This document shows positions 1,448 to 21,053 of a stretch of 64,000 nucleotides of DNA, in pieces. The notes below the pieces were generated by a model. That model ran no database searches. It saw only the letters and a program-made list of their open reading frames with translations, and had not been told where the DNA came from. Source of the DNA: Escherichia coli (GTDB lineage: Bacteria; Pseudomonadota; Gammaproteobacteria; Enterobacterales; Enterobacteriaceae); NCBI RefSeq assembly GCF_046105845.1, contig NZ_CP151004.1; one strand, given 5' to 3'. Positions within the stretch are counted from its first letter, which is position 1, and the number at the start of each line of letters is the position of its first letter. The translations under genes were made by a program, and so were the position numbers.

Positions 1448-2050
1448 CTATAAAACAGCGTGACGCTGTCTCCCTCTGGCTCTATCCCAGATGCCGTAAA
1501 AACGCCCTGCATTACTGGCGGTATACCAGACAGTATGACGAATATTGCGATGCCCAAGATAATCCTGGATAAGTCGCGTATCTATTCCCATATTCGCCAA
1601 AGCAAAACCACACGAATGGCGTAACATGTGCGGATGAATCTCCAGTGACAACCCGGCATTACCACCGGAAGTCGAGATAATATGGTAAAACTGTTGCCGA
1701 GAAAGCGGATTCCCCTTACGTGATAAAAATACCCACTCGCTCTCAGCATGCGGGTACGAAGTACGGATACTCAACCAGTTTTTTAAAGCCTGAACTTCTT
1801 TGTTCAATAGCGGGTGCGTTGTTGAAAAGCCTTTTTTTAATCGATGGATATATATACACTTTGCCTTAAGATCAATATCCGAAATCCTCAATCGACAAAT
1901 TTCACTCGCCCGGAAACCATGAATAAAAAAAAGCAAAGTCAGACAATAATTACGTGCTGCATGAGGCCCGGTATTTGCTGCTTTAAGGAGTGATTCGATT
2001 TCACTATGGGTCAGGAAGTTCCTTTTTTTGTTATCAGCCTTATTCTTCAT
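1448..2050 (-). CDS. fimB: type 1 fimbriae tyrosine recombinase FimB (200 aa; start taken at the internal Met MKNKADNKK)
   Basis: ORF paralogous to FimE (HPHMLRHSCGF...LGHRNIRHTVWYT); the 10-codon N-terminal extension in the ORF track is rejected. Confidence 0.92.
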   Translation of the reverse strand: MKNKADNKKRNFLTHSEIESLLKAANTGPHAARNYCLTLLFFIHGFRASEICRLRISDIDLKAKCIYIHRLKKGFSTTHPLLNKEVQALKNWLSIRTSYPHAESEWVFLSRKGNPLSRQQFYHIISTSGGNAGLSLEIHPHMLRHSCGFALANMGIDTRLIQDYLGHRNIRHTVWYTASNAGRFYGIWDRARGRQRHAVL

Positions 2051-3064
2051 CGTTTTTCCCTTATAATTACAGACGTGCACTAGCTGTGCTGGGTTAGCAA
2101 TAATCCAACATTTTTATCCTGATTATGTTTATAAAAGCGAACGTTTGCTTAATAACTAACGTAAGTGGACCAGTTCTTCTGAGTGAACTTAAATAGAGTA
2201 GCAACAGTTAATTATAATAACGTTGCCATACAAACGCTATGCTCTTGCATGCTATGTACCTTTATATATTTATCAATCTGATACGAATCTAATAATAACC
2301 CTCATCATTAATGCAACTAATCTTATCTATATATCATGTGATATGTTCTGTAACAAGTAAAATCAACATAAAAAATTCAGCAAAATTTAATATTCGTTCA
2401 ACTAGCCGTCTCACATATGACATTATTAGTCAACTGCATTTGCCACAAAATGGCTATTTCATGGAACGCAGTAATTTCTTAGTGGCTATTATCAAGCTAA
2501 TGCTTAGGTCCCTAGCTATTATTCCTACCTGGTTCGTCAGCTTAGGCCATGAGATTGTTACATTCCTTTTTATCCTGGAGATATGGGGGAACGCAGGCGA
2601 CGCTTTTTCATCTACATCCGTTGGTAAATATGGCTTTGGTCACTACGACTTAAACCTTCCTCAATCACAGCTATTCGCCGGGCGATACGGCAAACAAACT
2701 AAGTGAAACATCATCCTGAAAACACCAACATCAACAAGCCTCTCCAGATCGACTTCAGAAGCGACCAGTTACAAACCACAAATCAGGAAACATATTTCAT
2801 GGTGAGAATTATGCTCAACCTGATGGCGGGTAAACACTTGTTTTCACCACGCTCACTGAGTTAGCTTGCAAAGCTTCCCTTGTTTAGACCCTAAATAAAT
2901 TTTTTATAAAACAAACAGTTAAAAGAAAACCTTTAGTTTTTGAAGACCACCTCAAGTGTTCGTCTGGCTTCACATGGCATCTGCCTCTTAGAAAAAGATC
3001 GACATATTTTGTGACACGAATTGCAAATCTGGTTTTGTTGTATGGATTGCGTGATTTTTGATCT

Positions 3065-3086
3065 GGTATAACAGGTATAAAGGTGC
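3065..3086. promoter_or_regulatory. NanR operator-like GGTATA repeat in the fimB-nanC intergenic region
   Basis: GGTATAACAGGTATAAAGGTGCA, about 430 bp upstream of nanC; matches the GGTATA-repeat operator type known for NanR. Confidence 0.5.
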
Positions 3087-3502
3087 ACCACAATAGTCAA
3101 TGAGACAGGGCATCTCGCAATCTATGGCAAACATCACTTCAGTTCTTTCTCATCGGGTGATGAAAACGCACTTCTGTCTGAAAGGAATATGAAAATGAGA
3201 TCAACAGACACTCTATTTTATGACTCTGGGTAAAATGGATTGAGTAAGTGATATAGCTTACGAACATTCAAATCAATTAAACATCAGAAGAGATTTTATA
3301 CTCAGGTATTTAATCTGGTTCTCTGTTTATTTAAATAATGTGGAAAGAGAATTTTCACAGGAGACCTTATACAAAAAATATAAAATAAGCTACCCGTTGC
3401 CAAAGACACTATAAGCCTGGCAAAAAATATTACACAACATAAATGCTAATTGTTTATGCGGGCTTTGTATTGCTTTCTGTATCCTACAAATGAGTGAAAT
3501 AT

Positions 3503-4219
3503 ATGAAAAAGGCTAAAATACTTTCTGGCGTATTATTACTGTGCTTTTCGTTACCACTAATTTCTCAAGCTGCGACACTGGACGTACGTGGTGGATATCG
3601 TAGTGGAAGCCACGCCTATGAGACTCGACTCAAAGTCAGTGAGGGATGGCAAAATGGATGGTGGGCAAGTATGGAAAGTAATACCTGGAATACCATTCAT
3701 GATAATAAAAAGGAAAATGCCGCACTCAATGATGTTCAGGTTGAAGTTAATTACGCGATTAAACTTGATGATCAATGGACGGTGCGCCCGGGAATGTTAA
3801 CGCATTTTAGCAGCAACGGCACACGCTACGGACCCTACGTAAAACTGTCCTGGGACGCGACAAAAGATCTTAATTTTGGCATTCGCTATCGTTACGACTG
3901 GAAAGCTTACCGACAACAAGACTTATCCGGTGATATGTCTCGTGATAACGTTCATCGTTGGGATGGATATGTCACTTACCATATTAATAGTGATTTCACC
4001 TTCGCATGGCAAACGACGCTATACAGCAAACAGAACGATTATCGCTATGCAAACCACAAGAAATGGGCGACGGAAAATGCATTTGTTCTACAATACCATA
4101 TGACGCCCGATATTACGCCATACATAGAATATGACTACCTGGACCGTCAGGGTGTTTACAACGGCAGAGATAATTTATCGGAAAACAGTTATCGCATTGG
4201 TGTGTCATTTAAACTGTAG
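3503..4219 (+). CDS. nanC: N-acetylneuraminic acid outer-membrane channel NanC (KdgM-family porin, 238 aa)
   Basis: Signal peptide followed by beta-barrel-like sequence; conserved position upstream of nanM and nanS. Confidence 0.9.
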   Translation: MKKAKILSGVLLLCFSLPLISQAATLDVRGGYRSGSHAYETRLKVSEGWQNGWWASMESNTWNTIHDNKKENAALNDVQVEVNYAIKLDDQWTVRPGMLTHFSSNGTRYGPYVKLSWDATKDLNFGIRYRYDWKAYRQQDLSGDMSRDNVHRWDGYVTYHINSDFTFAWQTTLYSKQNDYRYANHKKWATENAFVLQYHMTPDITPYIEYDYLDRQGVYNGRDNLSENSYRIGVSFKL

Positions 4220-4238: not shown

Positions 4239-5345
4239 ATGAATAAAACAATAACGGCGCTTGCGATCATGATGGCTTCATTTGCCGCAAACGCGTCTGT
4301 ATTACCGGAAACTCCTGTGCCATTTAAAAGTGGTACCGGAGCAATTGATAACGACACTGTCTACATTGGTTTAGGTAGCGCAGGTACGGCATGGTACAAG
4401 CTGGATACACAGGCCAAAGATAAAAAATGGACAGCGTTAGCTGCATTCCCTGGCGGACCAAGAGATCAAGCAACCTCGGCATTTATTGATGGCAATCTGT
4501 ATGTGTTTGGCGGCATTGGCAAAAACAGCGAGGGCTTGACTCAGGTATTTAATGACGTACACAAATACAACCCCAAAACCAATAGCTGGGTTAAATTGAT
4601 GTCGCACGCGCCGATGGGCATGGCGGGCCATGTGACTTTTGTACACAACGGCAAGGCTTATGTTACTGGCGGTGTTAACCAGAATATCTTCAATGGCTAT
4701 TTTGAAGATCTCAACGAGGCTGGAAAAGATTCAACCGCTATAGATAAAATCAACGCCCACTATTTTGACAAAAAAGCAGAAGATTATTTCTTCAATAAGT
4801 TTCTGTTGTCTTTTGATCCCTCAACACAGCAATGGAGTTACGCTGGCGAATCTCCCTGGTACGGAACGGCTGGTGCGGCGGTTGTGAATAAAGGTGATAA
4901 AACCTGGCTTATTAATGGCGAAGCCAAACCAGGATTGCGAACGGATGCCGTATTTGAACTTGACTTCACCGGTAATAATTTAAAATGGAATAAGCTTGCT
5001 CCCGTCGCATCACCAGATGGCGTCGCTGGCGGTTTTGCGGGGATAAGCAATGATTCTCTTATATTTGCCGGAGGGGCCGGATTCAAAGGTTCACGAGAAA
5101 ATTACCAGAACGGTAAGAACTATGCGCATGAAGGCCTGAAAAAATCATATAGCACTGATATTCATCTTTGGCATAACGGGAAATGGGATAAATCGGGTGA
5201 ATTATCGCAAGGTCGGGCCTACGGAGTATCATTGCCCTGGAATAATAGTTTATTAATTATTGGCGGTGAAACTGCAGGTGGCAAAGCGGTGACGGATTCA
5301 GTTTTGATCTCTGTGAAGGATAATAAAGTCACAGTACAAAACTAA
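4239..5345 (+). CDS. nanM: N-acetylneuraminate mutarotase NanM (Kelch-repeat protein, 368 aa)
   Basis: Start at MNKTITALA with signal peptide and GGAGA-type RBS; repeated G-rich Kelch-like blades. Confidence 0.9.
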   Translation: MNKTITALAIMMASFAANASVLPETPVPFKSGTGAIDNDTVYIGLGSAGTAWYKLDTQAKDKKWTALAAFPGGPRDQATSAFIDGNLYVFGGIGKNSEGLTQVFNDVHKYNPKTNSWVKLMSHAPMGMAGHVTFVHNGKAYVTGGVNQNIFNGYFEDLNEAGKDSTAIDKINAHYFDKKAEDYFFNKFLLSFDPSTQQWSYAGESPWYGTAGAAVVNKGDKTWLINGEAKPGLRTDAVFELDFTGNNLKWNKLAPVASPDGVAGGFAGISNDSLIFAGGAGFKGSRENYQNGKNYAHEGLKKSYSTDIHLWHNGKWDKSGELSQGRAYGVSLPWNNSLLIIGGETAGGKAVTDSVLISVKDNKVTVQN

Positions 5346-5409: not shown

Positions 5410-6390
5410 ATGAACGCAATAATATCGCCCGATTATTACTATGTTCTTACCGTTGCTGGTCAGTCTAATGCCATGGCGTATGGCGAAGGACTGCCATTAC
5501 CGGACAGGGAAGATGCGCCTCATTCCAGAATTAAACAATTAGCGAGATTTGCGCATACGCATCCCGGAGGCCCGTCATGTCACTTTAACGACATTATTCC
5601 ACTGACTCACTGCCCACACGATGTTCAGGATATGCAGGGTTATCACCATCCTCTGGCAACGAATCATCAAACACAGTACGGCACCGTTGGCCAGGCACTG
5701 CATATTGCACGGAAATTACTGCCCTTTATTCCTGATAACGCAGGGGTTCTCATCGTTCCGTGTTGCCGTGGCGGATCGGCTTTTACCGCGGGCAGCGAAG
5801 GGACATATTCAGAACGGCACGGAGCCAGCCATGATGCTTGTCGTTGGGGAACGGATACTCCGCTATACCAGGATTTAGTCAGCAGAACGCGAGCCGCACT
5901 GGCAAAAAATCCGCAGAACAAATTCCTCGGCGTATGCTGGATGCAAGGCGAATTTGACTTAATGACCAGTGACTACGCGTCACACCCTCAACACTTTAAT
6001 CATATGGTTGAAGCCTTTCGTAGGGAGCTAAAACAATACCATTCTCAGCTTAATAATATTACTGACGCACCGTGGTTTTGCGGCGATACCACCTGGTACT
6101 GGAAAGAAAATTTCCCTCATGCGTATGAAGCTATTTATGGCAATTATCAAAATAATGTTTTAGCCAATATTATTTTCGTCGACTTCCAGCAACAAGGTGC
6201 AAGAGGACTGACGAACGCGCCTGATGAAGATCCAGACGATTTAAGCACGGGATATTACGGTTCAGCGTACCGGTCACCGGAGAACTGGACGACGGTACTG
6301 CGAAGCAGTCATTTCAGCGCGGCAGCCCGTCGGGGGATTATTTCTGACAGGTTTGTAGAAGCAATTTTGCAGTTTTGGCGCGAAAGGTGA
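5410..6390 (+). CDS. nanS: 9-O-acetyl-N-acetylneuraminate esterase NanS (326 aa)
   Basis: Start at MNAIISPDYYYVLTVAGQSNA with GQSN esterase motif; synteny with nanC and nanM. Confidence 0.88.
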   Translation: MNAIISPDYYYVLTVAGQSNAMAYGEGLPLPDREDAPHSRIKQLARFAHTHPGGPSCHFNDIIPLTHCPHDVQDMQGYHHPLATNHQTQYGTVGQALHIARKLLPFIPDNAGVLIVPCCRGGSAFTAGSEGTYSERHGASHDACRWGTDTPLYQDLVSRTRAALAKNPQNKFLGVCWMQGEFDLMTSDYASHPQHFNHMVEAFRRELKQYHSQLNNITDAPWFCGDTTWYWKENFPHAYEAIYGNYQNNVLANIIFVDFQQQGARGLTNAPDEDPDDLSTGYYGSAYRSPENWTTVLRSSHFSAAARRGIISDRFVEAILQFWRER

Positions 6391-6601
6391 GCGTTCATTA
6401 ATTTGATTTATTTGCATCCATTAGCGCTTTTAACTGCTCCGGCGTAAACGGTGGTTTGCGTCGGTGCAGCATCGCATGGCAATTAGGGCACACAGGAAGT
6501 AAAAAAACAAATGAGATCAAGGTAATATATCTTCACTTGCAGGCTTGAACAGCAGAAAATTTGCGAGCATGATCGCAATTATTTCACTGCCAGGGATATC
6601 A

Positions 6602-7474
6602 ATGGCTTCCAGTAAATCGCTACAGCAGGCAATTGCCAACATAAAAATCTGGCACAAGGGTGAACAGCGCGCGCCGCATAAGCCATTGTTATTGCTATAC
6701 GTATTAGCGGGATACCTGCATGGACATCCGCGCCTTTTCGATTATGGCTCGGAAATCTACGAACCTCTGCACAGTTTACTGGAACGTTTTGGGCCACAGC
6801 GTTCACAGTACCGACCTGATATGCCGTTCTGGCGATTACAAGGCGACGGATTCTGGCAATTACACAATGCCGAGCTTTGCTCAACAGCAGGGAGCAGCCG
6901 ACAACCGCCAGTGAAGGAACTGAACGAATACCACGTTGCAGGCGGTTTCGATGAACAGCACTACGCCCTGGTAACCGGCAATAAAAAACTCATCAATACT
7001 CTGGCGCAACAGATACTCGAAGCGCACTTCACCGAGAGTATTCAGGAAGAAATTGCTGACGAGCTGGGTTTTGATCTCCAGCAAATCCGTAAACAGCGCG
7101 ACCCGTTATTTCGCAAAAATGTATTACGCGCTTATAACTACCAGTGCGCGATATGTGGCTTTAATATGCGCCACGACGACACCACCGTCGCGCTTGAAGC
7201 GGCGCATATAAAATGGAAACAGCACGGCGGTCCTTGTGAAATTCCTAATGGCCTGGCGCTTTGCGCAATTCACCATAAAGCCTTTGATAAAGGATCGATT
7301 GGCCTGGATGAAAATATGCGGGTACTGGTCTCGGATGCGGTAAACGGCGGAGGGATCGTTGAGAAACTATTCTGGGATTTTGACGGGAAAACTATTGCGT
7401 TACCACAGGTGCGTAAAAATTACCCTTTTGAGGGGTTTGTAGAGTGGCATCGGAAAGAGGTTTTTAGGGGGTGA
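6602..7474 (+). CDS. HNH-endonuclease-domain protein with an uncharacterised N-terminal domain (about 290 aa)
   Basis: C-terminal CxxC...HIKW...NGLALCAIHH HNH-like motif; start chosen at ATG 6602 with an AGGGA RBS (the ORF track begins at TTG 6545). Confidence 0.65.
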   Translation: MASSKSLQQAIANIKIWHKGEQRAPHKPLLLLYVLAGYLHGHPRLFDYGSEIYEPLHSLLERFGPQRSQYRPDMPFWRLQGDGFWQLHNAELCSTAGSSRQPPVKELNEYHVAGGFDEQHYALVTGNKKLINTLAQQILEAHFTESIQEEIADELGFDLQQIRKQRDPLFRKNVLRAYNYQCAICGFNMRHDDTTVALEAAHIKWKQHGGPCEIPNGLALCAIHHKAFDKGSIGLDENMRVLVSDAVNGGGIVEKLFWDFDGKTIALPQVRKNYPFEGFVEWHRKEVFRG

Positions 7475-7784
7475 GGTAATACTTATTTTGCTGATTTAAC
7501 GTCTCTATCTGATTCAATTCGGCATCATGAACAGCCATGATATGCTTAATATGGGGCGAAGAAATTAGACCGTTATGATTGGTTTAGATTTCCGTTATTA
7601 CTTGCATTCGCTTTAGTTCCTAAAAGCCCCTGCCGTTAATGCCAGGCGCATTACGCAAAGGAGAATGATTAGTAAACAATAAGATTGAAAATCAGGAAGG
7701 CGACTCGCAATAAATCTGAAAGTCGCTTTCACATTGTTAAAATATATCCCTTACCACTCCTGTGTTGTGAACTGTTCATCACAC

Positions 7785-10700
7785 TTATAGCTGACGTTGA
7801 TCCAGACTGCTATATATCGCCTTTATTTCATTTTTTACGCCTTCGCCACGGTACACCAAAGACGTATCGTATCGTTGATATTTATCTTCTCGCGCAGCGC
7901 TGAACCAGTTAAAAGATCCAACGCACAACAACTCTTCATCCCTAATCACAATTTTGCTGTGAACGCGATTCACCAATTTTGTAGCAATGCCCATATTATT
8001 GAGCTTTTCGACTGCATCATTTAGAAGATGCAGTTTCTCCTGGCGCTTATCATCATCGATATGCGCAATATTGCAGTTTTTATCCGTTACCACGGTAATA
8101 TCAATACCTCGGGAGCGGGCCAGAGCCATTGACGTCAGAAACCCCGTTTGCTCCACTTTTTGCCAGGATAACCAGGGGGAAATAATCGTGATCTTCTGTT
8201 GAGCTGCGGCCAGAGCATTATTCAAGAATTCATCATGCTGCTCCACACCATGCAACGTTGAAATATGTGTCTGTGCGGAAATTAAATCCTGTCGTTTCTG
8301 AAACTCAAATTGCAACGCATTATTATCTGAAGCAAACAGAAATTTTGCCAATAACCCTCGTGGCGAAGATGCGGGCTGCATCTCAATAAGGTCCATATCG
8401 CCAAAGACCAGAAAACTATCCTTAGCGCGTGAGACAGCAACATTGAGGATACTGCTGTTGCTATCAAGAAACCTGCCATCTTCATGTTTTGAGTAGACTG
8501 GGGAAAAGAGAACAATCGCCCTTTCCGCACCCTGCAAGGAGTGCACAGTCCCCACTGTCAGTGAGCCCTCTTCGTCTTTGTCATTAATCTCCAGCTTACG
8601 CAATGACGTTTTGATGGCATTAACCTGCGCCGAAAATGGCGTCACAACACCAACAACTTTGTACAGAGGTTCCCCGTAATGGCGCTCTATATCATCCTTA
8701 TGTGTCGCCAGCCATGCTGCTATTGTTTCAGCTTCAAGAGGGTTATAACGGCTCCCCCCATTTGGCTTCATGCCTCGGCCATCAATATGCAGATATCCCA
8801 TTGCGGGAAAAATCGTCCCTTTTTCCATCCCTCTTTTAGGCTGCAACTTACCGTTATAGCAAAGTGAGTTACAGTAGCCGATGATGTTATTGAAACAGCG
8901 ACGATGCTCATACAGATACATTCCGCGCTCGAACTTGGGATCATACTGGTAGCGGGAGTTGAACTGGGCAACCTGCATTACGCTGCCAGATGCTGCACTT
9001 TTTCCAGACCTACACACATGGGAATATGTATTTATTAACTCTTCCTGAGTGCCACCAGAAAGAATATTCTCCTCAAGCATATTGCCCATATCAGTAACGG
9101 GTAGACAATTCCAGATTGGAGCTATTTGCTCCGTATCGCCAATCACCAGTGCTTTCTTCGCCAATGCAAAAGAGGCCGCAGCAACCTCCGGGAGTACCTG
9201 CCCTGCTTCATCGACAATCAGTAAATCGGCAAAGTTATATAAATAATTATTATCCGATGTTCTGTCCCCACCAAAAGATTTTCTCCTGTTCATATGGTAA
9301 GGCAACATGTAGCAGGTCATTACCACACAAGGAGTAAGTTTCATTCTTCTTAGCCAACGAGCCTCGGCGATAGTTGTCCCGGTAATTCCTTTTTCTTTTT
9401 GCAGGTTATCAATTGCCGCCATATCCATCAGCCAGCGACCTTCCCAATAATGAGTCGCTAACAAGAACGCTGGAAAACGAATCTGAGTATCGGCAAGCTC
9501 GTCCGCTCCGGCGAGGTTCAGCTCATCGTCTCCCCTGTAGCCCAGAGCATAAGTCAACCCGCGCCATTGTTTTGCTGCTTCCATTTCGCTTCGGGCTATG
9601 TCCTGCGCAAAGTTGATATTCTGTTGGCACGCCGCCTGCTCTTGTTGCGCTTTAGCGATCAAACTATCGATAAATTTATCAATATCTTCGGAACAATTTC
9701 CCTGGAACGCTGTCATTCTTGCGCCGAACGTAGAGTCCAGGAAGAGGTTAATCTGGTAATGGCGTTTAGCACGAACAGCAGGGAGCCATGACAAAAATGC
9801 ATACATAAGCGACTCATCGGCACGGTATTGCTGCCACTGCTTTTTACCTCTGGCTAAAAGTGAAATTTCGTTGCCAATATTGAGAAGAAGTGTGTTTTTG
9901 TCCTGAAGATACTGGTCGAGATTCTCACTGATGACTCGCTGTTCATGGCGGATATCATTGAGTCTGCGCCATGCAGGTTCGATTTGCTGAAGTTGCATAA
10001 CCTGTGAAGTTAAACGTTCATGCAAAAGCGTCACTACATGCTCTGGCGAATTGCACTCTCCAGCTCCAAACGCCGCCTCCGCTTTTTCAAGGTAAAAGGC
10101 CCGGGCTTTTTCCAGATATTCCAGGGATTCAACGCGGTTAAAAAAATCTTCAGTCTGGTATTTCTTCGCTGCCTCAACCTGACGGCTTTTAGACGGAAAA
10201 TAAGCGCCATAGCTTATTACTTCCGGCAACCAACGCCCAGACATTACGCCAAAACCAGTAGAGAAATCTTTTCCAAAGGCTTCAATAATATTGGTGACGG
10301 CCTGATTGTTAGTCGATGTGGCAATAATTACAGGAGGTTCAGTTTGATTAAGTGCGGCTCTTGTCCATTCGGTGGCAATAATAGAAAGCACCAGCGTAGT
10401 TTTACCCGTTCCCGGAGGACCGTTGACAGCGAGCATATCACCCTGCTGTTGAGTCAGATAATGGCTCAGGGCATCGCGCTGCGCCACTGCCAGCGGAAAC
10501 TTATCGCCGGAATGCCCCAGACGTTCGCAGAACATCGCATTCTTAGCGAGAAGTGGCTCCACTGGAGCCATTTCGTTTGAGGCAAAACGCGTTAATAGCG
10601 GAACCTTAACCTGGCTCATCAGAAGATGGTCATACATAGGCAGGATATGAACGCTGGCCCCTACATGCTGGCTAGCTTTAACAATATAACCGTATCCAGC

Positions 10701-11300
10701 CCGTTCGTATGGCTCAGATGTAGCGACCCAATTTCCAGCGACGTTTCTTAAAAGGTTATCTGACTGTTGTAGATAATTTTGCCAATGCTGACGATACCTG
10801 GCATGGCGTTCCGCTTTCTCTTCGTCAGTTTCTTCGTAATGTTCTGGTTCATCTTCATTAATGGTGGCTGTGTTATGCGTGGTTTTGTATTTGTCATATT
10901 GCGCCAACTCACCAATAGAAAAATGACCGGAAGGGAGAGGTTCAAGCAGATCGCGGGGAATAGTGGCTGAAGCGGCAGGAAACAAAAAACCTTCCCTATT
11001 CAGAAGAGCGGAGGTAACCAGTGGCGTGATAATTGCGGGTGCACCTGCCATTTGCTCTTTGCCATGCTTTACTATGCGGTTCCACACTTGGGGCCGTAAC
11101 ACGACTTCAACGGTTTTTACCGACTCCCCTTCACCGTCAAAAAATGCCCGAATAGTCTCGTCATCCAACTGCCCTGCGGTGATATTTATCCATCGAATGA
11201 ATGAATCTGTATCTTTACGTGAAAACGTTCCTTTACCAGATTCGGCGTCAGCTAAGGAGTTGCGCCAGTATGAAGTGAATCCCAATGTATTGCTGTCCAT
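7785..11300 (-). CDS. SF1 (Upf1-like) helicase fused to a C-terminal PLD-family HKD nuclease; Mokosh type II-like architecture
   Basis: Walker A GPPGTGKT (about 10397-10421), Walker B LIVDEAGQ, helicase motif [13 protein letters not shown]-terminal HSKIVIRD...GSFNW (HxKxxxxD...GSxN, near 7960); start taken at MDSNTLGF (11300). Confidence 0.8.
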
Positions 11301-11592
11301 TTTCCATTCCGTGACATAATAGAAATCATTGATTTCATTGATGTAAATATTACTTATGATTAAACATTGTCCACGATGCGAGCACGATCGCAATAAATAT
11401 TGTGCCTGGAGGATGGATTAGATTTTCTGAAAGAGCCGAATCCTTAATAGATAAGCGCAAACATACTTGGTTCGGTATTCTTAAGGGAATTAATATGGAT
11501 TGAACCAGGTGGAAAAAACAGCGGAAAAGATTTGTGTAGCGCGGATTTCAGGCATAAAAAAAGACCTCAGTTGAGGTCTATTTACATACTTT

Positions 11593-11610
11593 TGGTGCCG
11601 AAGGCCGGAC
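11593..11610. repeat. 18-bp direct repeat of the leuX 3' end; distal att-like boundary of the leuX island
   Basis: TGGTGCCGAAGGCCGGAC is identical to the reverse-complemented 3' end of the tRNA at 22703-22720. Confidence 0.7.
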
Positions 11611-11776
11611 CCGAATTTCACACCTAATAGACTGATATCAATATTGTTTATAAACAGGAATGAATAGTTATACCCGAACTTGTACCCACACGTTAAAATC
11701 CGTACAAAAAAATAGACATTGCAAGTGGGTATAAAGCCATACCAGTAGAACACCGATTTGGCTGTCAAAGCAAGAC

Positions 11777-13352
<1,576 letters not shown>

Positions 13353-13648
13353 TTTATTGATCTCAGGCTCACTCTAGCCATGGATAAAGAGCTTCATGAT
13401 CTAAGCTGACCTGCGGCGAACCTATTCTGCTAGCTGTAACTTTAGAGCGGTGCTCTCGGCGGAAACCATCGGCATGTGTACGCAAGAAAATAGCTGATTT
13501 GCTGTATACTTTGGCTATCACTACGCCAACATTCTCTGCGTATTCAAAAATCTGCCTGACAAAGTTCAGTTTTGTACTGTTTACATGACTCGATGGTTGT
13601 TGATGCTGGTTTTGTCATGTGAACGATAGATAGATGTAAGGCTACTTC

Positions 13649-13685
13649 TAGTCACATGTTCACTTGTGACTATGTAAGCTTACAT
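13649..13685. promoter_or_regulatory. Two adjacent perfect palindromes upstream of the methyltransferase operon (candidate operator)
   Basis: TAGTCACA-N8-TGTGACTA (13649-13672), immediately followed by the 14-bp palindrome ATGTAAGCTTACAT (13672-13685); about 245 bp upstream of the operon start. Confidence 0.3.
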
Positions 13686-13927
13686 ATCCCAGTCAGAGAC
13701 AGCTAATTGAAAAAGAGATATCATCATCAGCAATAGAAGTACAGAGATTGAGAGGCTTTATGAGATCCATTGATGTCACGAGCAATATACTAAATCTGTA
13801 AATTAACACCTTTGTGTTGCATGCTAATGAATTGCCCTTTAATGCAAACAAGTCAGTAGACGCCACAAAGAAAAAGCATGTAAATCTCCATTAAAACATA
13901 TAGATAGAAAGTTAAAAACGAGATAAC

Positions 13928-15718
13928 GTGGAATCGATTACCAAACTTTACCAGACCCCGCTGCCATCTACCCGTACTGGCCCTTTGTATAATGCGTTCT
14001 CATATCCAACAAAGATTTCACCAGAAGCTATAGCGGTTTACATTGCTACGCACACCGAGCCCGGTGCAACAGTGTTAGACGCATTTGCTGGTAGTGGTAC
14101 CACAGGCTTAGCCACTCTGCTCTGTGACCGCCCTACACTCGAAATGAAGCGAATGGCGGAAAGCCTCGGCGCATCGCCAAAGTGGGGACCACGTAATGCA
14201 CAACTTTTTGACATTGGAACATTAGGGTCATTCGTATCTCAGACCATGTGCAATCCTCCTGATCCTGACGAATTTGCAGATGCAGTGAAGGAGCTATGTA
14301 AACAAGCTGAGTTACAATTGGGTTGGTTATACAGTATTAAAGATGCCAATGGCCAAGTAGGCATGCTCCGCCATGCTATTTGGTCTGATGTACTAATCTG
14401 CCCTAACTGTAATACTGAGACCTCACTTTGGGATGCCAGTGTGAAAACTAATCCCATCAAAATGGCTGATTCTTTCATTTGTAAGGGTTGCCAGAAGCTC
14501 GTATCTATTGAAGCTTGTGAAAGAGCCACAGAGACAATCTCTGATGTTTTCGGAAGTACACAGTGCACCAAAAAACGAGTGTTAGCTCGCGTGCATGGAC
14601 GTTGCGGAACAACAAAGTGGCAGAGGCCTCCAACTGATGAAGACTATGAGATTTTGGCTCGCATTGCCGAAATGCAGCCTCCAACATCAGCCCCAAACGT
14701 TGAAATTGAATGGGGAGAACTAAGACGCTCAGGCTATCATTTTGGGATAGATAAGCTCCATCATTTCTATACAAAGCGTAATTTCATTGCGATGGCTTTA
14801 CTAATGGAGCTAGTCAATAACTTTAATGAAAGCGTTCGAGAGGCCTTGCGGCTTCTTGTCCTTAGCTACAATGCGAGCCATTCGACACTCATGACTCGTG
14901 TAGTGCTAAAAAAAGGACAAAATGACTTTGTACTTACGGGCGCTCAAAGTGGCGTGCTCTACATCAGCGGATTTCCAGTTGAAAAAAATCTTATAGAGGG
15001 TATTCGTCGCAAATCTAATTCGTTCATAAACTCGTTCCGGCTTTTATACGGTAGTCAAAGTCAGGTAACTGTTCATAATGTTAGCAGTGAAACTATGCCA
15101 CTCAAGGACAATTCCGTGGATTACGCTTTCACTGACCCTCCTTTCGGCGATTATATCCCATACGCTGAGCTCAATCAGCTCAATGAGCTTTGGCTAGGGC
15201 GTTCCACTGATCGTAAACGTGAAGTCATTGTGAGCCCTTCTCAAGCTAAGGGAGTGAAAGAATACGGCAGTATGATGGGTACAGTATTCAAAGAAATGTC
15301 TAGGGTACTGAAGCATGACGCATTAGCTACCGTAGTATTTCACTCCGCACATTCGGAGATATGGAGAGCTCTAGTTCAAGCTTATACCGAAGCAGGATTC
15401 GCAGTGGAAGCAACAAGCGTACTTGATAAAATTCAGGCAAGTTTTAAACAAGTAGTTTCGAATGTTTCTGTTAAGGGTGACCCTCTATTATTGTTATCTA
15501 AGCGCAGCCAAGAACGTTCAGAGTCTAAGACTTGTGATTTAATCGCCGCTGAGATAATCAATAATGCTAAAAATGATTTGAAACCCGATCCACAGCGTCT
15601 CTATTCACAATTTGTGGGAAGATGTCTCGAGCTGGGCAGCAACGTTACTATGGATGCAAAAACCTTTTATGCACTTGCTCAAACCAACGGTTTATGTGTT
15701 AAAGGAACCAATACGTGA
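13928..15718 (+). CDS. DNA methyltransferase-like protein (N4/N6 beta-class-like core with permuted motif order and a Cys4 zinc-ribbon insert), 596 aa
   Basis: SAM motif I VLDAFAGSGTTG at residues 48-60, preceded by a YPTK context; CPNC...CKGC cysteine cluster; motif IV FTDPPFGDY at residues 401-409 (about 15134); GTG start; stop overlaps the next gene. Confidence 0.8.
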   Translation: MESITKLYQTPLPSTRTGPLYNAFSYPTKISPEAIAVYIATHTEPGATVLDAFAGSGTTGLATLLCDRPTLEMKRMAESLGASPKWGPRNAQLFDIGTLGSFVSQTMCNPPDPDEFADAVKELCKQAELQLGWLYSIKDANGQVGMLRHAIWSDVLICPNCNTETSLWDASVKTNPIKMADSFICKGCQKLVSIEACERATETISDVFGSTQCTKKRVLARVHGRCGTTKWQRPPTDEDYEILARIAEMQPPTSAPNVEIEWGELRRSGYHFGIDKLHHFYTKRNFIAMALLMELVNNFNESVREALRLLVLSYNASHSTLMTRVVLKKGQNDFVLTGAQSGVLYISGFPVEKNLIEGIRRKSNSFINSFRLLYGSQSQVTVHNVSSETMPLKDNSVDYAFTDPPFGDYIPYAELNQLNELWLGRSTDRKREVIVSPSQAKGVKEYGSMMGTVFKEMSRVLKHDALATVVFHSAHSEIWRALVQAYTEAGFAVEATSVLDKIQASFKQVVSNVSVKGDPLLLLSKRSQERSESKTCDLIAAEIINNAKNDLKPDPQRLYSQFVGRCLELGSNVTMDAKTFYALAQTNGLCVKGTNT

Positions 15719-17763
15719 TGAGTAAGCATGATGATAATCATATCGAGATTAGCTGCCCTATAGACTTTGAACGGCGAAAACGGCTGGGGCAGTACTTCAC
15801 GGGTACCGGCCTTGGTCGTTTGCTTGCAGCCCTTGCTCAAGCCGAAAAGGCTGACAGCATCATAGATCCTATGGTGGGATCTGGAGACCTACTTGCCTCT
15901 TGTATAGAGATTGATGCTAAACCTGCTGTAATGGCAGGTATCGAGATAGATATGAAAGTACATAAGGCTTGTTCAAAGCGATTGCCACATGCACATTGTT
16001 TACTTGGTAATGCTTTCGATCCCAGGGTTATTGCACAGTTGCCCGTAAAATCATGGGATTTAGTAATCGCAAATCCCCCTTATGTTCGCTATCAATCCCT
16101 TCGGGATAAAGATCACAATTCAAGCGCATTTCCTTCCGCAATGCAAATTCGAAAAATGTTGCTTCGATCGTTAGAGTTGATAGATACACTCGATAAAGAA
16201 GATAAGCGACTTTTTGCCGAACTCATCCACGGTTATTCTGGTCTATCCGATTTGGCAGTGCCTGCATGGATTCTCTGCGCTGCTTTGGTTGAGAAAGGAG
16301 GACGTTTAGCTCTAATTGTACCTGAGTCGTGGCTTAGCCGAGACTATGCAACAATAGTGAATTACCTTCTGTTTAGATGGTTCGACATAGAATTTGTTGT
16401 AGAGGACGAACATGCGTCATGGTTTGAAGAAGCTCAGATCAAGACAACATTGATCATCGCCAAGAGAATTCAACGTCGCTCTTCCAAACTCTCAATTCCT
16501 GCTGAATATCACTATTGTCACATAGCACTTGCAGCCGCAGCAGCTAACAACAGAAGTCCTATAGGTGGTATTAACTTACCGGTAAAAGAGGCTGAAAAGC
16601 TCTTCGCAAAACAGGCTCAAATCTGGCTCCGAGATGCGTCTAAACATGAAACGGGCCTTGTTAGCACTCGTCCAATTTCTCTAAATCACTCTTGCAAAAA
16701 TATGATCGCGTCAGCTTCCCGCCAAAAGTGGTTTGCCACTATGAGTAAAGCTGATGATGTTTTCAGCAACGAAGACTATATACCTCATGAGATCCACGAA
16801 TGGATTAAAAGGAATACACTTACCCCTTCGTTCGATAGTTTTGAATCTATAGGCATCGCTGTTGGCCAAGGACTTAGGACAGGTGCTAATAATTTTTTTT
16901 ACGCTAGCGGAGAATTAAAAGACGGACACGTCGAGCTATCTTTTTTAGGCCCGTTATCAGGATTGAAAGCTAGAAGCTCAATCAACATCGTTAAGCCCAC
17001 ATTACGCCGCCAATCAGAGCTGCCTAATGGTTTTGTAATTTCTCCTTCTGATGCCAAAAGTTGGACGTTAGACTTAAGAAACTATGTACTGCCCGAAGAT
17101 ATTGGCGATAATGATATATCTTGCACATCATATGAGCTTATGCCAAATGAACTTGTTAAGGTCGTTAGAGCTGCACAAGAAGCAAACTTTGGCACAAGCG
17201 AGAGGCCGCTAAAAATTTGGGAGCTGACGGCGGTCGCACCTAATATCCGACCTGCAACACCTCAGACTCCCGCTCGTCATTGGTATATGTTGCCAAATTT
17301 TACACCTCGCCATCAACCAGATGTATTCTTAGCACGTGTAAATACGCTAACCCCTAAGGCTTATCTAAATCAAGATAGAGCATGCCTTATCGATGCTAAT
17401 TTTTCGACAATGTGGTTATTAGATGATTCAAAATGGTCAGCAACTACAATCCTCGCTTTTATGAATTCTACATGGGTTCAAGCTGTAATCGAGTGTCTGG
17501 GGTCGGTTATGGGCGGCGGGGCGTTGAAAGTTGAGGCCACTCACCTACGCAAAATTCCTGTTCCAAAGTTTAATGATGAGCAAAGAAAAATTCTTTCCGA
17601 TCTTGGAAAAAAACTTGTAAAAGGCACACAGGAAAAACTAGTTATTTTAGAGATAGATAGGATAATAGCTGAAGCTTTGGGCTGTAATGACATGAATATT
17701 GATGAACTTAAACAGATTACGCATTTAGGTCAAACTCGGCGGGCTAAACACAAAGGAAGGTAG
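15715..17763 (+). CDS. N6-adenine DNA methyltransferase, gamma-class (Eco57I/TaqI-like) with a C-terminal TaqI_C-like domain, about 682 aa
   Basis: GQYFTG (motif X), DPMVGSGDLL (motif I), NPPYV (motif IV, about 16072), GLRTGANNFFY (TaqI_C-like GxxTGxNxxF); start overlaps the upstream stop (GTGATGA). Confidence 0.8.
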   Translation: MMSKHDDNHIEISCPIDFERRKRLGQYFTGTGLGRLLAALAQAEKADSIIDPMVGSGDLLASCIEIDAKPAVMAGIEIDMKVHKACSKRLPHAHCLLGNAFDPRVIAQLPVKSWDLVIANPPYVRYQSLRDKDHNSSAFPSAMQIRKMLLRSLELIDTLDKEDKRLFAELIHGYSGLSDLAVPAWILCAALVEKGGRLALIVPESWLSRDYATIVNYLLFRWFDIEFVVEDEHASWFEEAQIKTTLIIAKRIQRRSSKLSIPAEYHYCHIALAAAAANNRSPIGGINLPVKEAEKLFAKQAQIWLRDASKHETGLVSTRPISLNHSCKNMIASASRQKWFATMSKADDVFSNEDYIPHEIHEWIKRNTLTPSFDSFESIGIAVGQGLRTGANNFFYASGELKDGHVELSFLGPLSGLKARSSINIVKPTLRRQSELPNGFVISPSDAKSWTLDLRNYVLPEDIGDNDISCTSYELMPNELVKVVRAAQEANFGTSERPLKIWELTAVAPNIRPATPQTPARHWYMLPNFTPRHQPDVFLARVNTLTPKAYLNQDRACLIDANFSTMWLLDDSKWSATTILAFMNSTWVQAVIECLGSVMGGGALKVEATHLRKIPVPKFNDEQRKILSDLGKKLVKGTQEKLVILEIDRIIAEALGCNDMNIDELKQITHLGQTRRAKHKGR

Positions 17764-17772
17764 CAGAATTTT

Positions 17773-20700
17773 ATGGGAACAATTTACAATGAAACTCAAG
17801 GCTTAGCATTTCTGAAAGAAGCTGTAGCACTTATGGCTGATGGAAAAGCTGAGGATGTTCTGCGACATGCGCTATCTGCCAAACTGCCGCTCATGTTCCC
17901 TAAACAGCCATGGTGGATAAAAGCACATGTTACAGGTACAGAGTCGCTTGCTAAATTTCATGAATTTGGTTCGAAAAAGTATGGATTCGTGGATGTATTA
18001 GTAGGTTCAACTGTTATTGAATATGAAAGAAATTTACAAACACAGGGTTCATTCACACATGGGCTCCATCAGTTAAAACAATATTGTGCTTCTCTTCTTA
18101 ACAGCCACACGCCTTCAGATCTTTTAGTTGGGGTACTATCAGACACGATTCGCTGGTATGCCTTTCGTGTTTCAGACGTAAAAGATATTTCGGCTGTTCC
18201 CGGTGCGACAAGCTACGGCCCTGAACATATTGATTTAGCTGAAATTGAATCCTATGACCTGTCGGCAGCTGGGAGCATTGAGGCCAAAAAGCTTGGTAAA
18301 TTCTTGGTTCGATATCTGGGCCGAGAAGGTGGACGAACTTTAGCAGCATCCATGCTAGCAAAGGATTTAGGCTTTGAAAGCTCATTTTGCGAAACACATC
18401 TCCAGCAAATAGAAAAACTAGTTGATGTAGCTTTTGTAAGCGATCCATCCTACGCTGGGTTAATCACCAAACTCTGGATGGATTTTGTTTCTTACTTGGG
18501 TGGTGAATCTGCTACAGGTAAATTTGATAAAACTTCATATATTGGAGAATTGTACATATTAACGTTAGCCAAGCTTATTTGCGCTAACGTACTTAGCGGT
18601 AAAGGACTTGTTAGCGACGATACGGAACTATTATCAATTCTAGATGGTACATTTTTCAAAGCGAAAGGACTTCCGAATCTTGTAGAATACGACTACTTCG
18701 GTTGGCTTAATAATAGCCCTTATGTTTCCCCCCTTGCCAAAGTAGCACGCGACATTCAGAACGATCTATTAGCTTATGACTTTGAGTCTGCTCCAGCTGA
18801 AGACCTATTTGGTTCTCTAATGGCTCAGCTTGCAACACGCGCTCAACGTCTTCTCCTCGGTCAAGAATGGACACCAGCATGGCTAGCTGCGAAAGTAGTA
18901 AATGAAGCCATCAACAAACTGCCATTAAACCAGCAACCAAGATTCATCGATATGTGTTGCGGTTCAGGCACTATAGTTGTGGAGACAGTAAAAGCGGTCC
19001 AACAACGGTTACTTGCAGCAGGCTCTAAGCCAGGAGAACCTGCTGCGTTAAGCTCATTAGCCACTGCAATTACGGCTTTCGATATAGATCCGCTCGCCGT
19101 AATGTTAGCAAAAGTGGGCTGGGTACTGGCTTGCAAGGACTGGCTTATACCTGGCCATGAAGCCTTAATTCCTGTGTATCACGCAGACTCACTATTTGCC
19201 AATACTCCGGTCACCAAGGTGTTTAGTACAACAGGCGAAGAGCAACGCAAGCTAAAGCTTGACACAGAAGAGGTTGACCTACCACAATTTTTGGTCGAAT
19301 CGAAACATCAATCTCTATTTGATGCACTTTTATCACGTGGTTATGATATGGCCATGAGTAGTGCTGCAGAAGCCAAATCAACGTTAAATAATGATGATAT
19401 TGAGATAATGGTTGATTCGGTAGCTTTGCATTTAGACTGTGTGCTGTCAGCTGAAGAACGCACATCTACATTATTCTTTTGCTGCCAACTGTTACGCGCA
19501 CTTGAAGCATTGCAACGTGCTGGTCGAAACGGCATTTGGTCATTCGTTCTGAAAAATAGCTTTCGCCCAGCCTTAGTGGCGGGCCGTTTTAATGGAATTG
19601 TTACTAACCCACCATGGCTATCGCTAAGCCGCATTGGTAGCAACCCTTATCGTAATGCGTTAAAAGCAAAAGCGGATAAATATGGAATTAAGCCATCTGG
19701 CGCTTCACACCTGCATGTTGAAATCGCGACGACCTTCTTGCTACATGCTATCGATCATTATCTTACATCAGATGGGGTTGTTGCATGTATCTTACCCGAA
19801 ACAGTTCTGAACGGTTCTCATCATGAACCATTCCGGTCATCCAAGTATCTATCAGCTAATAGTCCAGCAGCATTCAATCCACAAGAAATTTGGAAAGTGG
19901 CCAGCCAAACATTTAAAAATGAGGCCATTGTTCTATTCGGTTATAAATCTAAGCCAACATTTCCAGTAGTAAGCCTCTTGGGCCGAAAAGTTAGCAGTTC
20001 ATTTGAAGAATTCTGCGAGTTTCACATCGTTAATTCTGGAGGGAAGTCTGCTTGGGCATTAGACCGCCCTGTAACAGAAGTGTTGAAAGTGGAAACTAAA
20101 GATTCAATTGGACCTCTGTTTAGACAAGGAGCCGATATAATGCCCCGCGGAATTATTTTTCATGATATCAAAAAAAACGGAATATCATGGGATCTTGGTC
20201 CCATTCATCCCGGCTCATCACTATATTTTTTGCGTTCTGAGGGTAAAATTCTTAAGGACTTTTCTTTAAGCGCCTGTGGGGTGAACGATGGAGTGATATA
20301 TGATGTGCTTCTTTCAAAACATTTAGCCCCTTGGGAATTATCTGTAGGTTCAAAGGCCTTATTACCATTCCAGCGTAGTGACGATAAGTGGCTCGCTCGT
20401 ACTGGATCAAATATTGCAGCCCTAGGAGCTTCTACTGCCTCAGCAATCAAAGCTATGTTGACGGCAACCGGTGAAAACATAGAAGATTTCTTTTTACGAA
20501 TCGATACTGATCGCAAGAAATTAACCACCCAGAGTTGGAGCTCAGAAGACTGGGTTGTATTCGGGTCTGCTGGAGGTAAATGGCCATGCGCCGCTTACAC
20601 ACGCGGAGAGCAGATTCCCTGCTCTAAAACGATAATAGACCAAACGCTCTATTGGGGCGTAGTCAAAAGTGAGGATGAAGCGATATACATTACTGCACTA

Positions 20701-21018
20701 ATTAATAGTCCTGCGGTAATGAATGTGATTGTATCCCATCAACCTAGAGGATCCTTTGGGGAACGACACATACACAAGTTGGCTTTCGACCGGACACCTT
20801 CTTATGACCAAACCTCAGCTAAACATCTCGACGTTGTTCGCTCGGCGAAGGATTTGATGAATCAGTGGGCTAATCGTCGCATGGAAGCTGACATATCTCC
20901 CATGCTATCTCCTAGTGTTCACTTAATTACTCGCAGAAAAAAGATTCGTAATGCATTAGAGTCATTGCCTGCATGGGAGCCGTACGTGGCAGCCACTCAA
21001 GCTATATATGAAATTTAA
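17773..21018 (+). CDS. Large multidomain protein (1081 aa): HsdR/MmeI-like N-terminal domain, central gamma-class SAM-methyltransferase core, large C-terminal domain; Type IIG/IIL-like
   Basis: N-terminal D74...E83-x-E85...Q100xxxY104 pattern; GQEWTPAW (motif X-like); FIDMCCGSGT (motif I, about 18943); DIDPLAVMLAKV; NPPW (motif IV, about 19606); RBS AAGGAAGG upstream of ATG 17773. Confidence 0.8.
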   Translation: MGTIYNETQGLAFLKEAVALMADGKAEDVLRHALSAKLPLMFPKQPWWIKAHVTGTESLAKFHEFGSKKYGFVDVLVGSTVIEYERNLQTQGSFTHGLHQLKQYCASLLNSHTPSDLLVGVLSDTIRWYAFRVSDVKDISAVPGATSYGPEHIDLAEIESYDLSAAGSIEAKKLGKFLVRYLGREGGRTLAASMLAKDLGFESSFCETHLQQIEKLVDVAFVSDPSYAGLITKLWMDFVSYLGGESATGKFDKTSYIGELYILTLAKLICANVLSGKGLVSDDTELLSILDGTFFKAKGLPNLVEYDYFGWLNNSPYVSPLAKVARDIQNDLLAYDFESAPAEDLFGSLMAQLATRAQRLLLGQEWTPAWLAAKVVNEAINKLPLNQQPRFIDMCCGSGTIVVETVKAVQQRLLAAGSKPGEPAALSSLATAITAFDIDPLAVMLAKVGWVLACKDWLIPGHEALIPVYHADSLFANTPVTKVFSTTGEEQRKLKLDTEEVDLPQFLVESKHQSLFDALLSRGYDMAMSSAAEAKSTLNNDDIEIMVDSVALHLDCVLSAEERTSTLFFCCQLLRALEALQRAGRNGIWSFVLKNSFRPALVAGRFNGIVTNPPWLSLSRIGSNPYRNALKAKADKYGIKPSGASHLHVEIATTFLLHAIDHYLTSDGVVACILPETVLNGSHHEPFRSSKYLSANSPAAFNPQEIWKVASQTFKNEAIVLFGYKSKPTFPVVSLLGRKVSSSFEEFCEFHIVNSGGKSAWALDRPVTEVLKVETKDSIGPLFRQGADIMPRGIIFHDIKKNGISWDLGPIHPGSSLYFLRSEGKILKDFSLSACGVNDGVIYDVLLSKHLAPWELSVGSKALLPFQRSDDKWLARTGSNIAALGASTASAIKAMLTATGENIEDFFLRIDTDRKKLTTQSWSSEDWVVFGSAGGKWPCAAYTRGEQIPCSKTIIDQTLYWGVVKSEDEAIYITALINSPAVMNVIVSHQPRGSFGERHIHKLAFDRTPSYDQTSAKHLDVVRSAKDLMNQWANRRMEADISPMLSPSVHLITRRKKIRNALESLPAWEPYVAATQAIYEI

Positions 21019-21053
21019 TATAATATTTAGCTTGAAATTTTTTTAAATATTAA

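What the first reader, a model, noticed from the sequence alone, without database searches (positions are those of the whole stretch)
3065..3086. NanR operator-like GGTATA repeats in the long fimB-nanC intergenic region
GGTATAACAGGTATAAAGGTGCA lies about 430 bp upstream of nanC and about 1 kb upstream of fimB, in a ~1.45 kb intergenic region. This fits the known sialic-acid-responsive control of nanCMS and fimB. It is expected biology, recorded because the third repeat is degenerate (GGTGCA).
Basis: established knowledge. Interest (0 to 1): 0.2.

Follow-up and report, generated by a model that had tools for sequence, protein, structure and literature searches.

The report
Known NanR operator between nanC and fimB
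This is the well-known binding site of the sialic-acid repressor NanR between the E. coli nanC and fimB genes; its imperfect third repeat is the normal species-wide form, so the finding is correct but ordinary.

Summary
The sequence GGTATAACAGGTATAAAGGTGCA is present at window 3065-3087 on the + strand, so the stated end is one base short. It lies in the 1452-bp fimB-nanC intergenic region, 415 nt before the nanC ATG and about 1 kb from the fimB ATG. It is not a chance match: 0 of 100 shuffles gave one. It is base-for-base identical to E. coli K-12, including the "degenerate" GGTGCA. Counted from the published fimB start site it spans -744 to -766, matching the published NanR operator O_NR at about -760. 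Two NagC-type sites, 212 bp apart, fall where O_NC1 and O_NC2 are reported. GGTGCA is the species norm. An exact word of at least 28 nt that includes it occurs in 4745 of 5426 complete E. coli genomes. Nine genomes have GGTACA there, and none has a perfect GGTATA in nanC context. In a divergent Escherichia lineage, an 87-nt block running from the CRP/NagC site to the GGT of the third hexamer is almost invariant, while its flanks diverge. This is already known biology of low interest. Side observations are that the nanC and nanX promoter-leader regions are paralogous, and that a defence island sits at leuX.

The parts
3065..3087 (+). NanR operator O_NR: GGTATA (3065-3070), ACA, GGTATA (3074-3079), AA, GGTGCA (3082-3087)
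   Evidence: Searches show the sequence and its uniqueness. It is identical to K-12 and matches the K-12 nanA and nanX operators at 21 of 23 positions. Its position, -744 to -766 from the fimB start site, agrees with PMC3173223.
3060..3063 (.). GATC (Dam) site 1 bp upstream of the operator
   Evidence: The same GATCT precedes the K-12 nanA and nanX operators and 54 of 98 operator instances across Enterobacterales. PMC5155068 states that NanR binds within 5 bp of GATC sites at nanA, nanC and yjhB.
3004..3024 (+). Candidate NagC operator O_NC1 (ATATTTT-GTGACAC-GAATTGC), with GATC at 2997-3000 beside it
   Evidence: CATATTT-N8-GAATT occurs only twice in 64 kb, 212 bp apart; 0 of 100 shuffles gave 2 or more matches. 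The site maps to -683 to -703 from the fimB start site. It is identical in K-12 and lies inside the 87-nt conserved island.
3010..3025 (+). CRP-like site TGTGA-N6-TTGCA overlapping O_NC1
   Evidence: Read from the sequence. The homologous positions in K-12 are TGTGA-N6-TAACA at nanX and AGTGA-N6-TCGCA at nanA. CRP control of the nan operon is stated in PMC10334811. This is an inference; binding was not tested.
3067..3072 (+). -10-like hexamer TATAAC of the presumed nanC promoter, formed by repeat 1 plus its spacer
   Evidence: Inference from the sequence. A start site near 3079 would place the CRP-like site centre (3017.5) at -61.5. PMC8012715 says the NanR operators lie in the promoter region. 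The simple sigma-70 consensus scan found nothing here on the + strand, as would be expected for an activator-dependent promoter.
2998..3084 (+). Phylogenetic footprint: an 87-nt island with 1 mismatch between this window and the divergent Escherichia genome CP089930 (strain E69)
   Evidence: The 68-nt perfect run 3017-3084 is the longest in the 1.08-kb alignment, longer than any run within the nanC coding sequence. It ends at the GGT of the third hexamer.
2792..2812 (+). Candidate NagC operator O_NC2 (ATATTTC-ATGGTGA-GAATTAT, a near-palindrome)
   Evidence: It maps to -471 to -491 from the fimB start site, against 'around 470' in PMC3173223. It forms a locally conserved block in E69.
2894..2921 (.). 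A/T-rich stretch with IHF-consensus-like matches (for example AAACAAACAGTTA at 2909-2921) at the midpoint of the two NagC sites
   Evidence: One search lists one-mismatch matches, but the motif is not enriched over chance (89 found against 72 expected). This is positional inference only.
3503..4219 (+). nanC (sialic-acid outer-membrane channel), first gene of nanCMS; nanM is 4239-5345 and nanS is 5410-6390
   Evidence: 238 of 239 translated positions (238 residues plus the stop) are identical to K-12 NanC. NanM is identical at 367 of 369 positions and NanS at 318 of 327.
1448..2050 (-). fimB recombinase gene, with its start site inferred at window 2321 (-). SlyA operators O_SA1 and O_SA2 lie at 2489-2500 and 2504-2515
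   Evidence: FimB is identical to K-12 at 200 of 201 positions. O_SA2, CTAGGGACCTAA at -194 to -183, comes from PMC3173223 and is located.

Best explanation
This is O_NR, the characterised NanR operator of the E. coli nanC-fimB intergenic region. Without sialic acid, NanR dimers bind cooperatively to the direct GGTATA repeats. Two perfect repeats are enough for nanomolar binding. The operator overlaps the -10 and start region of the CRP-dependent nanC promoter, so bound NanR represses nanCMS. [quoted passage not shown] NagC, bound at two sites 212 bp apart, acts alongside it. Neu5Ac releases or alters NanR, inducing nanCMS and lowering fimB. The GGTGCA third hexamer is the fixed E. coli form of this operator. 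It most likely acts as a weak third position that is filled cooperatively, or as the non-consensus contact of the second dimer. Shown here: sequence identity, position, non-randomness and conservation. Taken from the literature on K-12: NanR binding and its regulatory effects. Inferred: promoter geometry and how the third hexamer is occupied.
For: The 23-mer is unique in the window and not expected by chance.

It is identical to K-12 at the orthologous place. It matches the K-12 nanA and nanX operators at 21 of 23 positions and shares their GATCT prefix.

Its coordinates relative to the fimB start site (-744 to -766), and those of O_NC2 (-471 to -491), match the published range of about 760 to 470 (PMC3173223).

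Two NagC-type sites occur only here in the window, 212 bp apart.

Genomic SELEX found a NanR peak in the nanC/fimB spacer (PMC5934670). NanR binds within 5 bp of the GATC at nanC (PMC5155068).

Binding studies show that two or more repeats at fixed spacing are required. Two repeats give a Kd of 25 nM, similar to three, but only two complexes form. Each dimer contacts one consensus hexamer plus adjacent non-consensus DNA (PMC8012715).

Conservation is strong. The 68-mer 3020-3087 is exact in 4066 of 5098 genomes. An exact word of at least 28 nt from the 30-mer 3060-3089, which necessarily includes GGTGCA, is found in 4745 genomes. The 87-nt island is nearly invariant in a lineage whose flanks are only about 60-85% identical.

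nanC, nanM, nanS, fimB and fimE are all intact.
Against: There are no binding or expression data for this particular strain.

The primary footprinting papers (Sohanpal 2004 and 2007, Kalivoda 2003 and 2013, Condemine 2005) are not in the held library. The operator assignment therefore rests on sequence identity, published coordinates quoted in later papers, and my recollection of the abstracts.

nanR itself is not in the window, so the regulator's presence is assumed.

The third hexamer departs from consensus at 2 of 6 positions, and its G at position 4 occurs in no operator other than E. coli nanC among the 98 instances examined, so a third dimer may not bind.

The SELEX study reports that NanR stays on this site with Neu5Ac present, which does not fit a simple release model.

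How a site about 750 bp away activates fimB remains unresolved in the literature.
Confidence: 0.93

Rival explanations
1. The site is a NanR operator that serves only the adjacent nanCMS promoter. In this strain it has no influence on fimB, whose distant control would be a K-12 peculiarity.
For: The operator sits on the presumed nanC promoter and is 744 bp or more from the fimB start site. The mechanism of long-range activation is unresolved. The intergenic region is only about 96% identical to K-12, with changes in O_SA1 and between the sites.
Against: All the mapped elements that K-12 needs for the fimB response are retained with the same spacing: O_NR, both NagC-type sites 212 bp apart, and the A/T-rich midpoint. 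PMC3173223 reports fimB activation by NanR from this operator.
Confidence: 0.05
2. The two perfect repeats form a two-dimer operator, and GGTGCA is not a NanR contact at all. Its conservation would reflect the nanC start site or initially transcribed region.
For: (GGTATA)2 binds as tightly as (GGTATA)3 but forms only two complexes (PMC8012715). The perfect conservation run ends at GGT. GGTGCA is the most divergent third hexamer among 98 operators. A start site near 3079 is implied by the TATAAC at 3067-3072.
Against: Five of six bases of the hexamer are kept (GGTGCA against GGTACA) in a lineage where the next 27 nt are only about 50% identical. GGTGCA is almost invariant in E. coli. Cooperative binding could fill a weak site. 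This rival changes only the stoichiometry, not the identity of the element.
Confidence: 0.3
3. It is a chance cluster of GGTATA-like hexamers in AT-rich intergenic DNA with no function.
For: None beyond the AT-richness of the region.
Against: 0 of 100 shuffles gave a match. The site is identical to characterised operators and shows extreme conservation.
Confidence: 0.01

Closest known systems
O_NR, the NanR operator of the nanC(yjhA)-fimB intergenic region of E. coli K-12 (Sohanpal et al. 2004; Kalivoda et al. 2013; Horne et al. 2021, Fig. 1b)
   Same: The 23-mer is identical, including GGTGCA, as are the GATC prefix and the flanks across 2998-3091. The distances to nanC and fimB are the same, and so are the neighbouring NagC-type sites.
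   Different: Nothing differs in the operator itself. The surrounding intergenic region differs from K-12 by about 4%, for example 1 nt in the SlyA site O_SA1, 1 nt in the O_NC2 spacer, and CA against AG just after the operator.
nanA (nanATEK-yhcH) operator of K-12, the (GGTATA)3 site used for NanR footprinting, AUC and cryo-EM
   Same: GATCT, then GGTATA-ACA-GGTATA-AA-GGT, is identical. A CRP-like site sits at the same distance upstream.
   Different: The third hexamer is GGTATA at nanA and GGTGCA here. The nanA operator is about 45 nt from its ATG, whereas here a 415-nt leader follows. The nanA site has no known activating role on a divergent gene.
nanX/yjhB (nanXY) operator and promoter of K-12
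   Same: The two are about 90% identical from the CRP-like site through the operator. The leaders are of similar length (412 against 415 nt) and weakly homologous along their whole length (z = 5).
   Different: The third hexamer at nanX is a perfect GGTATA. nanXY is absent from this 64-kb window, and most E. coli genomes have only one place matching the 68-mer query, which is consistent with nanXY being absent from most strains.

Membership tests
NanR (GntR/FadR-type) GGTATA-repeat operator of the E. coli sialoregulon | Two or more direct GGTATA hexamers separated by 2-3 nt (period 8-9) | tested here: met
   Two exact hexamers plus a third matching at 4 of 6 positions, with periods of 9 and 8. 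[quoted passage not shown]
NanR (GntR/FadR-type) GGTATA-repeat operator of the E. coli sialoregulon | Three consensus repeats, (GGTATA)3 | tested here: not met
   The third hexamer is GGTGCA. The same is true of the K-12 nanC operator that the family already includes, so three perfect repeats are not a strict requirement of the family.
NanR (GntR/FadR-type) GGTATA-repeat operator of the E. coli sialoregulon | Location at the promoter of a sialic-acid gene cluster (nanA, nanC or nanX) | tested here: met
   It lies upstream of intact nanC-nanM-nanS and is orthologous to the K-12 locus.
NanR (GntR/FadR-type) GGTATA-repeat operator of the E. coli sialoregulon | Bound by NanR protein and relieved by Neu5Ac | not testable with these tools
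   Literature on the identical K-12 sequence only: PMC5934670 (SELEX peak at nanC/fimB), PMC8012715 and PMC5155068.
NanR (GntR/FadR-type) GGTATA-repeat operator of the E. coli sialoregulon | nanR gene present in the same genome | not testable with these tools
   In K-12, nanR lies about 1.17 Mb away. It is not within this window.
NanR (GntR/FadR-type) GGTATA-repeat operator of the E. coli sialoregulon | Adjacent Dam GATC site within 5 bp | tested here: met
   GATC at 3060-3063, 1 bp from the first hexamer. PMC5155068.
NagC operator pair of the fimB upstream region (O_NC1, O_NC2) | Two roughly 21-23-bp A/T-armed sites (TTATTTY-N7-RAAATAA type) spaced for looping, at about -690 and -480 from the fimB start site | tested here: inconclusive
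   Two sites sharing CATATTT-N8-GAATT, 212 bp apart, occur only here in 64 kb, and their positions agree with PMC3173223. The consensus and the 212-bp figure come from my memory of the Plumbridge and Sohanpal papers, and the footprint data could not be accessed.

The most novel reading that the evidence does not exclude
The fixed 'two perfect repeats plus GGTGCA' layout may be a functionally distinct class of NanR site. No complete E. coli genome shows a perfect third repeat in nanC context. Such a site might hold two dimers, or a weakly held third, and so have a different induction threshold or keep residual occupancy under Neu5Ac, as the SELEX study reported for this site alone. That could underlie its dual role as nanC repressor and long-range fimB activator. 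A related reading is that the whole nanC promoter-plus-leader cassette is a duplicate of the nanX and nanA cassette, which would show how the sialoregulon grew by copying a regulatory module.
Probability: 0.15. Interest if true: 0.35.

Novelty: already known. Interest (0 to 1): 0.1.

Why it matters
The site links host sialic acid, an inflammation signal, to both sialic-acid uptake (nanCMS) and phase-variable type 1 fimbriation (fimB). That link is established biology in K-12. The value of this check is confirmatory. The whole regulatory layout is intact in a non-K-12 E. coli, and the 'degenerate' third repeat is the species-wide wild type rather than a strain-specific lesion. The only open question it raises is the stoichiometry and role of the third hexamer.

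Tried and rejected
- **Primary papers.** I tried to read Sohanpal 2004 and 2007, Kalivoda 2013 and Condemine 2005. None is held. A full-text search for the operator string found nothing. Positions were instead anchored through O_SA2 in PMC3173223.
- **Rfam.** The scan found no known RNA family in 2000-3600. A riboswitch or sRNA explanation for the long nanC leader is therefore unsupported.
- **Promoter scan.** The consensus sigma-70 scan found no + strand promoter at the operator. The promoter assignment rests on homology to nanA and nanX and on CRP-site geometry.
- **IHF motif.** The scan was not above chance (89 matches against 72 expected). The IHF site is placed only by its midpoint position.
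- **Leader ORF.** A 12-14-codon ORF in the nanC leader (3189/3195-3233) is kept in K-12 and E69. It shows 4 nonsynonymous changes against 1 synonymous, so I rejected it as a conserved peptide.
- **Strain-specific mutation.** I rejected the idea that the degenerate third repeat is specific to this strain.
- **Duplication boundary.** I rejected the idea that the third repeat marks the edge of the nanC/nanX duplication, because weak homology continues through the leader.

Full report
**Observation.** Window 3065-3087 (+) reads GGTATA-ACA-GGTATA-AA-GGTGCA; the finding's end coordinate is one base short. The nanA-type 23-mer, allowed up to 3 mismatches, matches only here in 64 kb, and no match appeared in 100 dinucleotide-preserving shuffles. 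The exact GGTATA-N3-GGTATA core is also unique.

The flanking genes are fimB at 1448-2050 (-) and nanC at 3503-4219 (+), followed by nanM and nanS. All are intact and close to K-12: 200 of 201 positions for FimB, 238 of 239 for NanC, 367 of 369 for NanM, and 99.2% nucleotide identity for fimE. The intergenic region is 1452 bp. The operator ends 415 nt before the nanC ATG and starts 1015 nt from the fimB ATG.

**Identity with the characterised operator.** I aligned the window with K-12 MG1655, whose intergenic region is about 96% identical. The 23-mer is identical, including GGTGCA, and so are the surrounding bases across 2998-3091. The K-12 nanA and nanX (yjhB) operators read GATCT-GGTATA-ACA-GGTATA-AA-GGTATA. 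The window site shares 21 of 23 positions with them and the same GATCT prefix.

The primary footprinting papers are not held, so I anchored coordinates another way. PMC3173223 gives the SlyA operator O_SA2 (CTAGGGACCTAA) as -194 to -183 from the fimB start site. That sequence lies at window 2515-2504, which puts +1 at window 2321 (- strand). On this scale the 23-mer is at -744 to -766.

Independent literature on the identical K-12 sequence agrees:
- Genomic SELEX gives a NanR peak in the nanC/fimB spacer (PMC5934670).
- NanR binds within 5 bp of the GATC sites upstream of nanA, nanC and yjhB (PMC5155068).
- Horne et al. align the operators of the three operons (PMC8012715).

The pattern CATATTT-N8-GAATT occurs exactly twice in 64 kb, at 2791-2810 and 3003-3022; 0 of 100 shuffles gave two matches. 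The two copies are 212 bp apart, the spacing I recall from the Sohanpal 2007 abstract for O_NC1 and O_NC2. The proximal copy maps to -471 to -491, in agreement with 'around 470'.
- O_NC1 overlaps a CRP-like TGTGA-N6-TTGCA at 3010-3025. This element is shared in position with nanX and nanA.
- A GATC lies beside each distal site, at 2997 and 3060.
- IHF-like matches cluster at the midpoint of the two NagC sites (2894-2921), but that motif is not above chance.
- TATAAC at 3067-3072, formed by repeat 1 and its spacer, is a plausible -10 element. A start site near 3079 would put the CRP-like site at -61.5. This is an inference; the simple consensus scan sees no promoter here.

**The third hexamer.** It is not a strain-specific defect.
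- The 68-mer 3020-3087 is exact in 4066 of 5098 E. coli genomes that carry the region.
- An exact word of at least 28 nt from the 30-mer 3060-3089, which necessarily includes GGTGCA, occurs in 4745 of 5426 complete genomes.
- A nanC-context query carrying GGTATA finds no genome, and one carrying GGTACA finds nine.
- The four variant genomes I sampled differ in repeat 2 or in the flanks, never in GGTGCA.

I then scanned about 100,000 species-representative genomes for the exact string GGTATAACAGGTATAAAGGT. It hit 90 loci, mostly nanA-type operators across Enterobacterales. Tallied together with the E. coli loci fetched earlier (98 operator instances), the third hexamer reads GGTATA in 47, GGTATG in 21, GGTACA in 16, GGTGCA in 4 (all E. 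coli nanC), GGTCTA in 3 and GGTAGG in 2. Degeneracy at the third position is therefore common, and GGTGCA is its most divergent form.

**Phylogenetic footprint.** A divergent Escherichia genome, CP089930 strain E69, has the orthologous nanC upstream region. Positions 2998-3084 differ at a single base, while the flanks fall to about 50-80% identity. The 68-nt perfect run 3017-3084 is the longest in the whole 1.08-kb alignment, longer than any run in the nanC coding sequence. It stops at the GGT of the third hexamer, which reads GGTACA in E69. O_NC2 is also a locally conserved block. This is strong evidence of selection on the module formed by the CRP/NagC site, the promoter and the NanR operator.

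**Mechanism.** According to PMC8012715:
- NanR dimers bind cooperatively through their N-terminal extensions.
- One hexamer alone is not bound.
- Two hexamers give a Kd of about 25 nM, like three, but form only two complexes.
- Each dimer contacts one consensus hexamer and adjacent non-consensus DNA.
- Neu5Ac weakens binding.

The two perfect repeats here therefore suffice for tight binding over the nanC -10 and start region, which represses nanCMS. GGTGCA is either a weak third position filled cooperatively or the non-consensus contact of the second dimer; this is unresolved. Activation of fimB from about 750 bp away, together with NagC, is documented for K-12, but its mechanism remains open. 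The SELEX report that NanR stays bound with Neu5Ac does not fit a simple release model.

**Verdict.** This is already known biology, so interest is low.

**Seen in passing.**
- The nanC and nanX regulatory regions are paralogous. They are about 90% identical from the CRP-like site to the operator, and their leaders (415 and 412 nt) are weakly homologous along the whole length (z = 5, 0 of 500 shuffles).
- A short leader ORF is kept in length across lineages but not in sequence.
- The window has no second NanR operator, so nanXY is absent from these 64 kb.
- Between nanS and leuX (tRNA-Leu CAA, 22703-22787) lies a defence island. It carries a Mokosh MkoC-like gene, restriction-modification-like genes and a truncated integrase. 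K-12 carries KpLE2 at this position (from established knowledge of K-12; only part of that stretch was fetched here).

Noticed in passing
window 3006-3502, compared with K-12 L003 3566-4058: The nanC and nanX (yjhB) promoter-plus-leader regions are paralogous. They are about 90% identical from the CRP-like site through the NanR operator. The leaders are of nearly equal length (415 and 412 nt) and align weakly along their whole length (z = 5.0, 0 of 500 shuffles). nanA shares the promoter part and a CATCACTTCAG motif in its leader.
   Followed up: partly
window 3189-3233 (+): There is a 14-codon ORF (12 codons from the second ATG), MKMRSTDTLFYDSG*, with an AAGGA Shine-Dalgarno-like sequence in the nanC leader. 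Its length is kept in K-12 and in the divergent E69 lineage, but there are 4 nonsynonymous changes against 1 synonymous. The homologous position in nanX opens a 43-codon ORF. It is probably not a conserved peptide; a uORF role was not tested.
   Followed up: partly
window 6545-22787: An integrative island lies at leuX (tRNA-Leu CAA, 22703-22787, - strand), between nanS and leuX. It contains an HNH/type IV-like endonuclease (6545-7474), a full-length Mokosh MkoC-like helicase-PLD protein (7785-11393, 1471 bits), an IS transposase (12298-13344), a PglX-like methyltransferase and two further methyltransferase/type IIG-like proteins (13928-21018), and a truncated P4-type integrase (21751-22662). 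An isrC sRNA match lies at 12163-12285. K-12 carries KpLE2, which includes nanXY, at this position.
   Followed up: partly
window 2489-2500: The SlyA operator O_SA1 differs from K-12 by one base. On the + strand it reads TTATCAAGCTAA against TTATCATGCTAA in K-12, which brings it to 11 of 12 matches with the SlyA consensus TTAGCAAGCTAA. O_SA2 (2504-2515) is unchanged.
   Followed up: no
window 2051-3502 as a whole: The intergenic region is at most 97.7% identical to any of 5426 complete RefSeq E. coli genomes and about 96% identical to K-12, while the flanking genes are about 99% identical to K-12. This non-coding region is therefore more polymorphic than its neighbours, apart from the near-invariant island at 2998-3084.
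   Followed up: partly
window 33760-33954 (-) and 51605-51720 (-): There are Rfam matches to Ysr276 (185.8 bits) and to the Mg2+ riboswitch (125.8 bits, presumably the mgtA leader). These are consistent with the K-12 neighbourhood of leuX and mgtA.
   Followed up: no
L013 and L079 (genome contigs): E. coli nanC-type and nanX-type operator sequences turn up on short contigs of a 'Bacteroides' MAG and a Methylobacterium assembly. This is most likely E. coli contamination in those public assemblies.
   Followed up: no
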